From Solirubrobacterales bacterium (GTDB taxonomy: Bacteria > Actinomycetota > Thermoleophilia > Solirubrobacterales > 70-9): a DNA stretch of 64,000 bases. The stretch covers positions 3,315-67,314 of the forward strand of contig DASXOF010000133.1 of assembly GCA_036494495.1 (NCBI GenBank), given 5' to 3'. The first letter of the stretch is position 1, and each line of letters begins with the position of its first letter. Below the pieces are notes generated by a model. That model did no database searches. It was not told the DNA's origin and worked only from the letters and a program-made list of their open reading frames with translations. Positions 11,435-19,789 of the stretch are shown here, piece by piece. The position numbers were made by a program, and so were the translations under genes.

Positions 11435-12796
11435 TCAACCTGACTCCGCCGTCACTGCAAGTCGCTCCCCGGCGAGCTCCGGCAGCAGCGGCTGCAGGAC
11501 CCGGTTGGCGGTCAGCCCGAGGCAGCCGAGGTTGGCGAACCCCGGCCCCTGGCTGAGGCCGCCGAGGCCGGGGATGTGAAGTCGCGGCGAGAGGCCGCGC
11601 AGCTCCAGCGCCCGGCCGATCGGGACCTCGGTCCCCGGCGGCGTGTCCCAGACCTGACCGGCCTCGCGCTCGACCACGGCCCGGACCTCGTCGGAGAAGA
11701 GGCTGCGCAGCTGCGCCAGCAGGTCGAAGCCGGTGCAGTTGACGACGTAGTCGAACTCGGCCGCCACCACCCCGCCCGGCGCCTCGTACTCGAGGCTGAG
11801 CGCCTCACCGCTCGCGGCGAGGCCGGCGTGGAGGGCGCGGCCGACCTCGAACGAGGAGTGCCCGTCGCCCGACAGCGAGGCGATCACGCCGGCGTCGAAG
11901 ACGCCGCGGTCGGCGTGCTTGACGAAGTCGCGGCGGGCCTGCTGGTCGAGCCGTTCCCAGCTGACGTCGTCGGGGTCGGCGAAGACCCGGTTCTCGAGGA
12001 AGCTCTCGCCGCGGCTCATCGGCAGGAGCGGCGTGAAGACGGTGAGACTTGCGAGCGGCCGGAAGGCGCGGAGGAAGACGAGGGCGCTGAGGGCGCTCTC
12101 GCCGCCGCCGAGGATCGCGATCTCGACCTCCTCGTCCTCGGCGATGCCGGCGAACTCCGAGCGGCGGCTGTCGCAGTGGAAGAGCCGCGGCGCCGCCGCC
12201 GGGTCGTGCGGCAGGGCGCGGTGGACGCCCGGGCCGGTCAGCAGCAGGGCGCCGCCGACGTGGCGCTCGGGGTCGTCGGGCTGGCCGCGCTCGGTCACCG
12301 CGATCGCCCAACGCTCGGGGTCGTCTTCGATCGTCACCGACTCGACCCGGCCGTGCAGCAGCCGCACCCCCTCGGTTGCGCGCTCGAGCACCCAGCTCAG
12401 ATAGGCGCCGTAGTCGCGGTGGCGGACCGAGGGCGCGCCGGAGTTGACCCAGCCGGCGTACTCGCCGCGTTCGATCGCGTAGCGCTGCCAGCTGAACGGC
12501 AGGAGCGCCGCGTCGATCGCGTCGCCGGCGGCGCCGAACTGCCGGTAGCTGCGGTACGGGAAGCCGACGTCCTTGATCGGCGGGATCGCCAGCGGCTCCT
12601 CGCCGGAGGTCATCCCGTTGCGGCCGAGCCAGGACGCGGCGGGCTCGGTTTTCTCGACGATCGTCAGCGTCAGCTGGCCGAGGCCGAGCCGGTTGACGAC
12701 GTGGACCTTGGCGGCGATCGCCGCCGCCTTGGCGCCGGCGCCGACAATCAGGAGGTCGGCTTCCGGCGGCGCCTCCGTCTGGCTTGCGGTGCTCAT
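11435..12796 (-). CDS. FAD/NAD(P)-binding monooxygenase (lysine/ornithine N-monooxygenase-like, tentative)
   Basis: Two dinucleotide-fold motifs are present (LLIVGAGAKAAA and IAILGGGESALSA). ATG 12796 overlaps the P450 stop (ATGA). Confidence 0.6.
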   Translation of the reverse strand: MSTASQTEAPPEADLLIVGAGAKAAAIAAKVHVVNRLGLGQLTLTIVEKTEPAASWLGRNGMTSGEEPLAIPPIKDVGFPYRSYRQFGAAGDAIDAALLPFSWQRYAIERGEYAGWVNSGAPSVRHRDYGAYLSWVLERATEGVRLLHGRVESVTIEDDPERWAIAVTERGQPDDPERHVGGALLLTGPGVHRALPHDPAAAPRLFHCDSRRSEFAGIAEDEEVEIAILGGGESALSALVFLRAFRPLASLTVFTPLLPMSRGESFLENRVFADPDDVSWERLDQQARRDFVKHADRGVFDAGVIASLSGDGHSSFEVGRALHAGLAASGEALSLEYEAPGGVVAAEFDYVVNCTGFDLLAQLRSLFSDEVRAVVEREAGQVWDTPPGTEVPIGRALELRGLSPRLHIPGLGGLSQGPGFANLGCLGLTANRVLQPLLPELAGERLAVTAESG

Positions 12797-14085
12797 CAGG
12801 CGACCGGTTCGGCGATCACCAGGCCGCGCCTGGCGGGCGCGAAGGAGATCGCGGATTTCTTGATCGCCTCGCCGCGCCGCTCGGCCGGTTCGAGGCGGAC
12901 GCTCGCGAGCACCGTGCGGATCACCCGCTTCATCTCCATTTCCGCGTAGGAGGCGGCGAGGCAGCGGCGGACGCCGCCGCCGAAGGGGATCCAGGTGTAG
13001 GTGCCGGGCGGCGTCGCGAGGAAGCGCTCGGGGAGGAAGCGGAGCGGTTCGGCATAGTTCGCCGGGTCGCGGTGGACGAGGTGGATGCAGGGCGCGACCG
13101 TGGTCCCCGCCGGCAGCTCGCGGCCGGCCAGCCGCAGCGGCGCCAGCAGCCGGCGGACCACCACCGGCACCGGCGGCCGCAGCCGCAGCGTCTCCTTGAT
13201 CACCGCGTCGAGGTAGGCGTCGCCCTCGCCCGCCAGCACCTCCTCGCGGGTCCGGGCGAGCACGTCGGGGTTGCGCAGCAGCCGCTCGAAGGCCCAGGCG
13301 AGGGTGCTCGAGGTCGGGCCGTCGGAGAGCAGCGTCACCAGTTCGTCGCGCAGGTCGCGCTCGCTCATCGGCGAGCCGTCCTCGTAGCGGGCGCGGACCA
13401 GCATCGAGACCACGTCGCGGGGCTCCTCCTCGGGCTCGGCGCGGCGGCGGCGCGCCTCGGCGATCACCGCTTCCTCGACCGGCCGCATCGCCTCCCGGTA
13501 GCCGCGGCTGCGGGTCATCGCGCCGGGGCCGAAGGCGGCGAGCAGGGCGAGGTTGCGGGGGCTGTTGAGCCAGGCGGTGAGGCGGCGCAGGCGCTCGCGC
13601 AGGCCGTCGAGGCGGCGGTTCTCGCCGGAGCCGAAGACCGCCCGCATCACCACCTCCTGGGTGATCTCCTGCATCCGCGGCCAGAGCTCGAACGGCTCCC
13701 CCACCGGCCAGCGCTCGACTTCCTGCCGCGCCACCGTCGCCATCATCTCGGCGTCGGCCTGGACCGCGCCGCCGTGGAAGGAGGGCAGCATCAGCTTGCG
13801 CCGCTGCAGGTGCTCGGGTTCTTCCATCAGCATCACCGAGCGCGGGCCGAGGACCGGCCCCAGCAGCGGGTTGGCGAGGTCGACGCCGACCGCCTCGCCG
13901 GCGGTGAAGACGGCTTTGACGTCGGCCGGGTCGCTGAGGATCACCCAGTCGCCCCAGTGCATGATCCGCAGCGTGAAGGCGTCGCCGTACCGCCTGTGGC
14001 AGCGCTCCAGATAGGGCAGCGGCCGTTGCGTCCAGGCGACCGCCTGCATCGCCCGCGGCAGCCGCGGGCCGGGTGGCATGCTCAC
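12796..14085 (-). CDS. cytochrome P450
   Basis: The heme-thiolate loop is FGGGVRRCLAASYA and the ExxR motif is in KETLRLRPP. GTG 14085 overlaps the upstream stop; the alternative start is ATG 14079. Confidence 0.9.
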   Translation of the reverse strand: MSMPPGPRLPRAMQAVAWTQRPLPYLERCHRRYGDAFTLRIMHWGDWVILSDPADVKAVFTAGEAVGVDLANPLLGPVLGPRSVMLMEEPEHLQRRKLMLPSFHGGAVQADAEMMATVARQEVERWPVGEPFELWPRMQEITQEVVMRAVFGSGENRRLDGLRERLRRLTAWLNSPRNLALLAAFGPGAMTRSRGYREAMRPVEEAVIAEARRRRAEPEEEPRDVVSMLVRARYEDGSPMSERDLRDELVTLLSDGPTSSTLAWAFERLLRNPDVLARTREEVLAGEGDAYLDAVIKETLRLRPPVPVVVRRLLAPLRLAGRELPAGTTVAPCIHLVHRDPANYAEPLRFLPERFLATPPGTYTWIPFGGGVRRCLAASYAEMEMKRVIRTVLASVRLEPAERRGEAIKKSAISFAPARRGLVIAEPVA

Positions 14086-14405
14086 GCCGCCCGCTCCCGG
14101 CCCAGCCGGCGTTCGCGCTCGAGCCGGTCCATCAGCTCGTCCTCGGCCCGGCAGGTGGCGGCGATCAGCAGCTCGAAGAGGTTGGCGGTGAAGTCCGCCG
14201 GCAGCTCGACCGCGGCGCCGCGGTCGAGGTAGCGCCGGCGCACGACCTCGACCCGGTCGGGCTGCATCATCGCGATCTCGTGCTCGCTCTTGTAGACGGC
14301 GACTTCGCGGCAGATCTGGAAGCGCTCGCCGAGCAGGCGGGCGACCTCCTCGTCGATCACGTCGAGGCGGTCGCGGAACGGCTGCAGGCCGCCGGTCTCG
14401 CTCAT
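14082..14405 (-). CDS. AroQ-class chorismate mutase-like protein (candidate 4-amino-4-deoxychorismate mutase)
   Basis: The 107-aa product reads MSETGGLQPFRDRLDVIDEEVARLLGERFQICREVAVYKSEH...QPDRVEVV. ATG 14405 overlaps the upstream stop. Confidence 0.75.
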   Translation of the reverse strand: MSETGGLQPFRDRLDVIDEEVARLLGERFQICREVAVYKSEHEIAMMQPDRVEVVRRRYLDRGAAVELPADFTANLFELLIAATCRAEDELMDRLERERRLGRERAA

Positions 14406-19693: not shown

Positions 19694-19716
19694 CCCCCAA
19701 GGGCTCCGCTCGGAGA

Positions 19717-19789
19717 TGCACCGGCCGGGGCTCGAACCCGGATCTACGGCTTACAACGCCGTCCCTTTAACCGATTAAGGCACCGGTGC
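19717..19789 (-). tRNA. tRNA-Thr (anticodon UGU), 73 nt, CCA not encoded
   Basis: I folded the cloverleaf manually. The acceptor stem is GCACCGG/CCGGTGC and the D arm is CCTT-AATCGGTTA-AAGG. The anticodon arm is ACGGC-GTTGTAA-GCCGT. The T arm is CCGGG-TTCGAGC-CCCGG and the discriminator is A. Confidence 0.8.

What the first reader, a model, noticed from the sequence alone, without database searches (positions are those of the whole stretch)
11435..19789. tRNA-led, seven-gene translationally coupled operon joining an ArgRS paralog to aminodeoxychorismate chemistry (candidate undescribed pathway)
On the minus strand a tRNA gene is followed 23 nt later by seven CDS. Their stop and start codons overlap by 4 nt at every junction (18008-18011, 15852-15855, 15382-15385, 14402-14405, 14082-14085, 12796-12798).

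The gene order is: ArgRS paralog, fused PabA-PabB, GNAT, HDAC-fold deacetylase, AroQ mutase-like protein, P450, and a two-Rossmann flavin monooxygenase. A PQQ-propeller lipoprotein with a strong SD follows after 19 nt.

ADC synthase plus an AroQ mutase is the first half of the p-aminophenylalanine route (PapA/PapB). However, no PapC-type dehydrogenase, NRPS, PKS or ATP-grasp gene is present. An aaRS paralog occupies the first position instead. I do not recognise this combination as any characterised cluster.

The combination suggests a small aromatic-amine metabolite that is condensed with an amino acid (with or without tRNA), oxidised on N or C, and handled as an N-acetyl intermediate.
Basis: partly seen in the sequence, partly recalled or inferred. 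Interest (0 to 1): 0.88.

Follow-up and report, generated by a model that had tools for sequence, protein, structure and literature searches.

The report
tRNA paired with an ArgRS-like enzyme in a biosynthetic operon
A small soil bacterium carries a conserved gene cluster that starts with its own unusual transfer-RNA gene, followed directly by a changed copy of the arginyl-tRNA synthetase enzyme and then by enzymes that make nitrogen-modified building blocks. The same tRNA-plus-enzyme pair recurs in many uncultured bacteria. It points to a little-known way of using tRNA in metabolism outside protein synthesis, though we did not show that the enzyme actually charges this tRNA.

Summary
On the minus strand, a tRNA-Thr(UGU) gene (19717-19789) is followed 23 nt later by a translationally coupled run of genes: an ArgRS paralog, fused PabAB (aminodeoxychorismate synthase), GNAT, HDAC-fold amidohydrolase, AroQ chorismate mutase, P450, a flavin N-monooxygenase of the lysine-hydroxylase (NbtG) type and a PQQ-propeller lipoprotein. 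A conserved polar-amino-acid ABC importer lies upstream. The gene order is conserved across a Solirubrobacterales genus and in 80 metagenomic loci.

It keeps the whole ArgRS fold but has lost the arginine-binding residues. In 78 of 78 metagenomic loci, and in several more distant subfamilies, a divergent tRNA gene sits 15-41 nt upstream of it. That tRNA's body (D- and T-arms) is almost invariant, while its anticodon changes between lineages (UGU, UAA, UCU, UUU; one lineage apparently has a 6-nt loop). Every genome checked also keeps a canonical tRNA-Thr(UGU).

Best reading: a dedicated, probably non-decoding aaRS/tRNA pair that makes an aminoacyl donor for a small-molecule pathway. It works like the hydrazine-synthetase logic (an aaRS-like ligase next to a lysine N-hydroxylase) but is not a member of that family.

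The parts
21634..22521 (-). Polar amino acid ABC transporter substrate-binding lipoprotein (SBP_bac_3; closest NCBIfam: lysine/arginine/ornithine SBP, below cutoff)
   Evidence: conserved upstream of tRNA in all loci
20775..21617 (-). ABC permease (BPD_transp_1, polar amino acid type)
20029..20778 (-). ABC ATPase (GlnQ/ArtP-like)
19717..19789 (-). Dedicated divergent tRNA-Thr(UGU)-like partner gene; body conserved, anticodon variable across lineages
   Evidence: ARAGORN; covariation; family survey; extra isoacceptor
18008..19693 (-). ArgRS paralog (class I, HIGH retained; Arg-binding D118/Y313/D317 replaced by Y/Q/A; full ArgRS architecture). The collection's gene call (P0001) starts at M3.
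15852..18011 (-). Fused PabA-PabB aminodeoxychorismate synthase (GATase + chorismate-binding; PIKGT catalytic Lys)
   Evidence: TIGR00553 above cutoff
15382..15855 (-). GNAT acetyltransferase (RxxGxG acetyl-CoA motif)
14402..15385 (-). HDAC-fold Zn amidohydrolase (closest solved: acetylpolyamine amidohydrolases)
14082..14405 (-). AroQ-type chorismate mutase (CM_2), second copy in genome
12796..14085 (-). Cytochrome P450 (FxxGxxxCxG, ExxR present)
11435..12796 (-). Class B flavin N-monooxygenase, lysine N6-hydroxylase (NbtG)-like
9850..11415 (-). PQQ-fold beta-propeller lipoprotein ('acido-empty quinoprotein' type, lipobox LAAGC)
   Evidence: conserved in loci

Best explanation
This is a conserved specialised-metabolism operon built around a dedicated enzyme-tRNA pair. 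The ArgRS paralog keeps ArgRS's ATP site and its tRNA-binding domains: the Add1 domain that reads the D-loop, and the C-terminal anticodon-binding region. It has lost the arginine pocket, so it most likely adenylates a non-arginine, pathway-derived amino acid. It probably aminoacylates the adjacent, non-decoding partner tRNA. Canonical ArgRS needs tRNA even to activate arginine, so this may be tRNA-dependent activation.

The aminoacyl group is then used in a small-molecule pathway. Most likely it is transferred to a hydroxylamine made by the NbtG-like lysine N-hydroxylase, the logic of hydrazine synthetases but without their cupin. GNAT and HDAC-fold enzymes add and remove acetyl protecting groups. 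PabAB plus AroQ supply an aminodeoxychorismate/4-amino-4-deoxyprephenate unit. The P450 and the surface PQQ-propeller lipoprotein tailor or handle the product. The co-conserved Lys/Arg/Orn-type ABC importer brings in an amine precursor or takes back the product.

Shown: operon structure, conservation, domain identities, loss of the Arg-pocket residues, and the tRNA-paralog pairing across the family. Inferred: tRNA aminoacylation, the substrate, the acceptor and the product.
For: Synteny of all eight genes plus the tRNA and the ABC importer in genus MAGs and in 80 metagenomic loci; 78/78 with enough upstream DNA have the tRNA 15-41 nt upstream on the same strand.

The partner tRNA is an extra, divergent isoacceptor: a canonical tRNA-Thr(UGU) is present in 26/31 genus genomes. 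It has compensatory stem changes, 99% cells paired. Per-region identity across 76 partners: T-arm 99.8%, D-arm 98.4%, acceptor 92%, anticodon arm 85-88%. The anticodon switches UGU to UAA between lineages.

Independent ArgRS-paralog subfamilies also carry adjacent tRNA-like genes: L031 (P0121, 61%), with the same D/T arms and an apparent 6-nt anticodon loop; L116 (P0136, 39%), tRNA-Arg(UCU) 25 nt upstream; the C169-type paralogs in G010, G003, G007 and G000.

The paralog aligns structurally over its full length to ArgRS, including the Add1 and C-terminal domains. Arg-binding residues are replaced by invariant Y113/Q321/A325.

The ArgRS-like + Lys_Orn FMO (+ HDAC) module recurs in distant members with coupled gene overlaps (P0125, P0123, P0130). 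The closest known logic is the aaRS-like + Lys N6-hydroxylase of hydrazine synthetases (PMC2922099; bioRxiv 10.1101/2025.08.22.671884).
Against: No biochemical or expression data: RNA-seq evidence was unavailable. No aminoacyl-tRNA-consuming enzyme (CDPS, FemX/MprF, PEARL) is recognisable in the operon. The GNAT looks like an acetyl-CoA enzyme, so the fate of any aminoacyl-tRNA is unexplained. Pfam detects no DALR anticodon-binding domain in any of 40 family members; only structural alignment suggests the C-terminal domain. The tRNA association is weaker in some distant subfamilies: none near P0130 or P0133; in G007 and in the genome's own C169 paralog the tRNA-like lies at the 3' end. Co-conservation within related lineages is not fully independent evidence.
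Confidence: 0.5

Rival explanations
1. The ArgRS paralog works tRNA-independently, like the MetRS-like domain of hydrazine synthetases. It adenylates an amino acid and transfers it straight onto the hydroxylamine made by the FMO. The tRNA gene is adjacent only for expression reasons, for example a leader whose processing by RNase P/Z makes the mRNA 5' end, or a promoter element.
For: Distant family members pair ArgRS-like + Lys_Orn FMO (+HDAC) with no tRNA found within 1 kb (P0130; P0133). The aaRS-like + Lys N6-hydroxylase logic is precedented (bioRxiv 10.1101/2025.08.22.671884; PMC2922099). No aa-tRNA-consuming enzyme is in the operon.
Against: The partner tRNA's body is conserved while its anticodon drifts, and it is conserved next to several independent paralog subfamilies. 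A mere processing leader would not need a conserved cloverleaf with compensatory changes. The paralog keeps ArgRS tRNA-binding domains structurally.
Confidence: 0.3
2. A natural genetic-code expansion, like pyrrolysine: the paralog charges the partner tRNA with a pathway-made non-canonical amino acid, and the ribosome inserts it at rare codons (ACA, or UUA in the Leu(UAA) lineage).
For: The architecture of tRNA gene + aaRS + amino-acid biosynthesis genes in one operon resembles pylTSBCD (recalled from memory, not tested here). The paralog retains anticodon-binding-like structure.
Against: The anticodon differs between lineages and one lineage apparently has a 6-nt anticodon loop. The operon's own genes contain no ACA codons. 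The enzymes look like specialised-metabolism enzymes (P450, FMO, PabAB).
Confidence: 0.05
3. Self-resistance: the ArgRS paralog is a resistant copy of the target of an arginyl-tRNA synthetase inhibitor made by the cluster.
For: Biosynthetic clusters often carry resistant aaRS copies (general knowledge).
Against: The paralog has lost the residues that bind arginine: E. coli D118, Y313 and D317 correspond to invariant Y, Q and A. It cannot replace ArgRS, and the genome has a canonical ArgS.
Confidence: 0.03

Closest known systems
Bacterial hydrazine synthetases (Spb40/PyrN/Tri28 type: N-terminal zinc cupin + MetRS-like aaHS domain) with a partner lysine N6-hydroxylase
   Same: An aaRS-like class I adenylating enzyme encoded next to a flavin lysine N6-hydroxylase. 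Likely ATP-dependent aminoacylation of a hydroxylamine (O-aminoacyl-hydroxylamine chemistry).
   Different: ArgRS-derived, not MetRS-derived. No cupin domain or separate cupin. Keeps ArgRS Add1 and C-terminal domains. Comes with a dedicated tRNA gene and extra modules (PabAB/AroQ, GNAT/HDAC, P450, PQQ propeller, ABC importer).
Pyrrolysine system (pylT tRNA + PylRS + PylBCD biosynthesis genes), recalled from memory
   Same: An operon combining a tRNA gene, a dedicated aaRS and biosynthesis genes for an unusual substrate.
   Different: The pyl tRNA has a fixed CUA anticodon and decodes UAG. Here the anticodon changes between lineages, which argues against decoding. The aaRS here is ArgRS-derived, not class II.
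PapA/PapB/PapC 4-aminophenylalanine pathway (pristinamycin, chloramphenicol; recalled from memory)
   Same: Aminodeoxychorismate synthase (PabAB/PapA) plus an AroQ-type chorismate mutase (PapB), giving 4-amino-4-deoxyprephenate.
   Different: No PapC dehydrogenase, no NRPS, and other partner enzymes.
tRNA-dependent natural-product biosynthesis (CDPS, FemX/MprF-type, PEARLs, valanimycin VlmL/VlmA)
   Same: Aminoacyl-tRNA used outside translation. VlmL is a dedicated aaRS paralog (SerRS) in a biosynthetic cluster.
   Different: None of these families has a dedicated tRNA gene with drifting anticodon. No recognisable aa-tRNA-consuming enzyme here.

Membership tests
Hydrazine synthetase (cupin/MetRS-like) | Zinc-binding cupin domain (N-terminal or standalone) for N-N bond formation | tested here: not met
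   No cupin among the 8 operon proteins by Pfam; none in the conserved loci.
Hydrazine synthetase (cupin/MetRS-like) | MetRS-like aminoacyl-adenylating domain | tested here: not met
   Structural and sequence matches are ArgRS; MetRS ranks lower (Z about 15 vs 21-24).
Hydrazine synthetase (cupin/MetRS-like) | Partner lysine N6-hydroxylase | tested here: met
   PF13434; closest solved structure NbtG.
Arginyl-tRNA synthetase (as a functional ArgRS) | Arginine-binding residues (E. coli D118, Y313, D317) | tested here: not met
   Replaced by invariant Y113, Q321, A325.
Arginyl-tRNA synthetase (as a functional ArgRS) | HIGH motif and ArgRS domain architecture (Add1, catalytic, C-terminal anticodon-binding) | tested here: met
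   HIGH at 124-127. Full-length structural alignment to ArgRS, Z 21-24. The DALR Pfam model is not detected.
PapABC 4-aminophenylalanine pathway | ADCS (PapA) with the catalytic Lys | tested here: met
   TIGR00553 above cutoff; PIKGT motif.
PapABC 4-aminophenylalanine pathway | Chorismate mutase (PapB) | tested here: met
   CM_2; the genome's only CM_2 besides a separate AroH.
PapABC 4-aminophenylalanine pathway | PapC prephenate-dehydrogenase-like enzyme in the cluster | tested here: not met
   No such gene in the operon or the conserved loci.
Pyrrolysine-type code-expansion system | tRNA anticodon conserved for one reassigned codon | tested here: not met
   Anticodon varies (UGU, UAA, UCU, UUU; apparent 6-nt loop) across lineages.
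tRNA-dependent biosynthesis (aa-tRNA consumer present) | An aa-tRNA-utilising enzyme (CDPS, FemX/MprF, PEARL, Aat-type) encoded in the cluster | tested here: inconclusive
   None recognised by Pfam or NCBIfam. The small GNAT shows acetyl-CoA-type motifs but was not tested further.
tRNA-Other (unassigned unusual bacterial tRNAs; from memory) | Non-canonical tRNA genes not assigned to a canonical aaRS | not testable with these tools
   No paper found in the library; the resemblance is recalled from memory only.

The most novel reading that the evidence does not exclude
The ArgRS-paralog/partner-tRNA pair is a natural, pathway-specific system that charges a tRNA with a non-canonical amino acid made by the operon (for example an N-hydroxylated lysine derivative or an ADC-derived amino acid). 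The charged tRNA then serves as an aminoacyl carrier in a new family of tRNA-dependent natural products. In its most extreme form it even feeds that amino acid into the ribosome at rare codons.
Probability: 0.35. Interest if true: 0.9.

Novelty: new variant of a known kind. Interest (0 to 1): 0.8.

Why it matters
Dedicated aaRS-tRNA pairs are known almost only from pyrrolysine and a few code-variant systems. aaRS paralogs in specialised metabolism (hydrazine synthetases, VlmL, MshC) are known to work without their own tRNA genes. This looks like a widespread soil-bacterial family in which an ArgRS-derived ligase is inherited together with its own tRNA. The tRNA keeps its body but lets its anticodon drift, the signature expected of a tRNA used as a molecular handle rather than for decoding. 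If it is confirmed, it would (i) show a new route by which tRNAs feed specialised metabolism, (ii) give a natural orthogonal aaRS-tRNA pair that could be engineered, and (iii) define a family of uncharacterised N-hydroxy/aminochorismate-derived metabolites in uncultured Actinomycetota. Each of these can be tested directly in vitro.

Tried and rejected
RNA evidence: the look-up of sequencing runs and read laying found only metagenomic contigs from relatives. No RNA contig spans the tRNA-to-ArgRS junction, so co-transcription was not shown. One RNA contig across the ArgRS/PabAB junction comes from a relative and is only a weak hint. Absence of RNA cover is no evidence.

Rejected rivals:
- Self-resistance (resistant ArgRS copy): rejected because the Arg-binding residues are lost and a canonical ArgS exists.
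- Genomic-island insertion at a tRNA site: rejected because the GC content and GC3 match the genome, the tRNA is an extra divergent isoacceptor, and the pairing recurs in independent paralog subfamilies.

Searches that gave nothing:
- Literature searches for ArgRS paralogs, tRNA-Other, and ADCS+ArgRS clusters found no description of this system.
- Pfam found no DALR domain in any family member.
- Pfam on the neighbours of the G010 C169-type paralog was uninformative.
- The listing of cluster members gave no taxonomy for distant members.
- A phylum-wide genome sample (400 Actinomycetota) found the closest subfamily only in the window's genus. The wider family seen in metagenomes is mostly from uncultured taxa, not found in the genomes searched.
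Full report
What is in the window. The window comes from a 3.37 Mb, 200-contig metagenome-assembled genome (MAG). It is genus g1 of the Solirubrobacterales (class Thermoleophilia), and the window lies on contig C133. On the minus strand, ARAGORN finds a single tRNA-Thr(UGU) at 19717-19789. Twenty-three nt after its 3' end comes a 561-aa class I aaRS-like protein (18008-19693; Pfam tRNA-synt_1d; TIGR00456 argS at 84 bits against a cutoff of 262). The genome has its own canonical ArgS on C110 (418 bits).

Then follow, each overlapping the next by ATGA/GTGA:
- a fused PabA-PabB aminodeoxychorismate synthase (TIGR00553 above cutoff; catalytic-Lys motif PIKGT);
- a GNAT (RxxGxG motif);
- a Zn HDAC-fold amidohydrolase (PPGHHA, GFCYLNN and DxH motifs; closest solved structures are acetylpolyamine amidohydrolases);
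- an AroQ chorismate mutase;
- a P450;
- a class B flavin N-monooxygenase, whose closest solved relative is NbtG L-lysine N6-monooxygenase (E 1.8e-60);
- a PQQ-fold beta-propeller lipoprotein.

The genome has separate housekeeping ADCS and AroH-type chorismate mutase genes. The window's PabAB and AroQ are therefore extra copies, as expected for a PapA/PapB-like branch. Upstream on the same strand lies a Lys/Arg/Orn-type polar amino acid ABC importer (SBP, permease, ATPase). Downstream are a convergent UspA, a TetR regulator and a Nudix hydrolase. The region's GC content matches the genome.

Conservation. The full order (ABC importer, tRNA, ArgRS-like, PabAB, GNAT, HDAC, AroQ, P450, FMO, PQQ) is conserved in MAGs of the same genus at 80-90% identity, and the 4-nt overlaps are conserved too. 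The ArgRS paralog is present in 23/24 genus relatives but was not found in 400 other Actinomycetota genomes at E 1e-30. A metagenome scan with a profile of the family (A3) returned 80 loci at 55-86% identity. Of these, 78/78 with enough upstream DNA carry a tRNA 15-41 nt upstream on the same strand (61 Thr(UGU), 17 Leu(UAA)).

The ArgRS paralog. An AlphaFold2 model (A1, pLDDT 66) aligns over residues 1-559 to full-length ArgRS chains (VIA Z 21-24, about 500 residues, spanning the Add1 N-domain and the C-terminal anticodon-binding region; Foldseek E about 1e-15). CysRS and MetRS align only from residue 102 onward. The HIGH motif is kept (HIGH 124-127). Mapping E. coli ArgRS positions through the canonical ArgS of this genome and through yeast and Thermus alignments gives these replacements, all invariant in 32 orthologs:
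- D118, essential for the guanidinium, becomes Y113;
- Y313, the gatekeeper, becomes Q321;
- D317, essential, becomes A325;
- the W162 region ANHVGDWG becomes RSLICDVG.

So this is not an arginine-activating enzyme. It is also not a resistant ArgRS copy.

The family is broad. There are 1308 representative clusters at E 1e-3 and 193 at 1e-30, mostly full-length at 30-66% identity, far closer than canonical ArgRS. Distant members repeatedly sit in coupled operons with a Lys/Orn N-hydroxylase, often with an HDAC-fold enzyme as well: P0125 has ArgRS-like, HDAC and FMO with 4-nt overlaps; P0130 has ArgRS-like and FMO; P0123 has ArgRS-like, HDAC and FMO. Others sit with methyltransferases, ACPS/A-PCP, ATP-grasp or Orn/Arg decarboxylases. 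This mirrors hydrazine synthetases, where a MetRS-like aaHS domain aminoacylates N6-hydroxylysine made by a partner hydroxylase (PMC2922099; bioRxiv 10.1101/2025.08.22.671884). But no cupin is present here.

The partner tRNA. The window tRNA is an extra, divergent tRNA-Thr(UGU). The canonical tRNA-Thr(UGU) (C167 type) is present in 26/31 genus genomes. Across orthologous loci it keeps its cloverleaf with three compensatory pairs: 99% of cells paired against a shuffled mean of 93.5%, and slid controls 27-49%. Across 76 family partners, identity by region is T-arm 99.8%, D-arm 98.4%, acceptor 92%, and 85-88% for the anticodon stem and loop. The anticodon itself switches between UGU and UAA. In more distant paralog subfamilies, related tRNA-like genes again sit next to the paralog:
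- L031 (P0121): the same D/T arms with an apparent 6-nt anticodon loop, 1 nt upstream;
- L116 (P0136, 39%): a tRNA-Arg(UCU) 25 nt upstream;
- a second paralog lineage (C169 type, including one in this genome): UUU/UCU tRNA-like genes upstream (G010, G003) or at the 3' end (G007, and weakly in this genome's own C169 copy).

These partners share acceptor and T-arm motifs and are more alike than canonical tRNA pairs. This pattern, a conserved body and acceptor stem (the usual aminoacylation identity region) with a drifting anticodon, is what a non-decoding tRNA recognised by a dedicated synthetase would show. A decoding tRNA would show the opposite. It fits a paralog that keeps the ArgRS Add1 (D-loop-reading) domain.

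Interpretation. Most likely (confidence about 0.5): an aaRS-paralog/tRNA pair that makes an aminoacyl donor, perhaps by tRNA-dependent activation as in canonical ArgRS, for a small-molecule pathway. That pathway joins a lysine-derived N-hydroxy amine (FMO), acetyl protection and deprotection (GNAT/HDAC) and an aminodeoxychorismate-derived unit (PabAB/AroQ), with P450 tailoring. The pocket changes (acidic residues replaced by Tyr/Gln/Ala) are consistent with a neutral polar side-chain end such as a hydroxamate, for example N6-acetyl-N6-hydroxylysine, but this is inference.

Rivals: tRNA-independent ligation to the hydroxylamine, with the tRNA as a positional or expression element (about 0.3); natural code expansion (about 0.05); self-resistance (rejected). 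Unknown: the amino acid, the acceptor, the consumer of any aminoacyl-tRNA (no CDPS, FemX or PEARL is recognisable), and the final product. RNA evidence was unavailable.

Comparison with known systems. Functionally it resembles hydrazine synthetase logic and the pylTSBCD architecture. It is not a member of either: no cupin and not MetRS-like in the first case; a drifting anticodon in the second. PabAB plus AroQ is PapA/PapB-like, but there is no PapC. No characterised cluster with this gene set was found in the literature library.

Noticed in passing
genome G000 contig C169:17536-20295 (+) (locus L029 3537-6296): A second ArgRS paralog (919-957 aa ORF) with an N-terminal extension of about 460 aa that has no Pfam hit. 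It is only 34-36% identical to the window paralog. A weak tRNA-Arg(UCU)-like element (ARAGORN only at relaxed threshold) lies at its 3' end on the opposite strand (C169 ~20318-20385). Its orthologs in genus relatives G010/G003 have tRNA-like UUU genes about 30 nt upstream; in G007 a tRNA-Arg(UCU) lies downstream.
   Followed up: partly
window 9360-9839 (+), 8713-9306 (-), 8212-8703 (-): A UspA (convergent to the operon), a TetR-family regulator and a Nudix hydrolase are conserved just downstream of the operon in genus loci. The TetR may regulate the cluster.
   Followed up: no
locus L031 (metagenome contig Ga0679435_0002525) 7928-7999: A partner tRNA-like gene with D- and T-arms identical to the window tRNA but an apparent 6-nt anticodon loop (ARAGORN). 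It ends 1 nt before the start codon of a 61%-identical ArgRS paralog.
   Followed up: partly
locus L114/L115 (P0133 contigs): Two divergently oriented ArgRS-like paralogs next to an ornithine/arginine decarboxylase and methyltransferases. This is another amine-chemistry context for the family.
   Followed up: no
window 20113-20793: The ABC ATPase region drew very high contig depth in unrelated metagenomes, probably because the ATPase domain is widely conserved. Not relevant to the finding.
   Followed up: no
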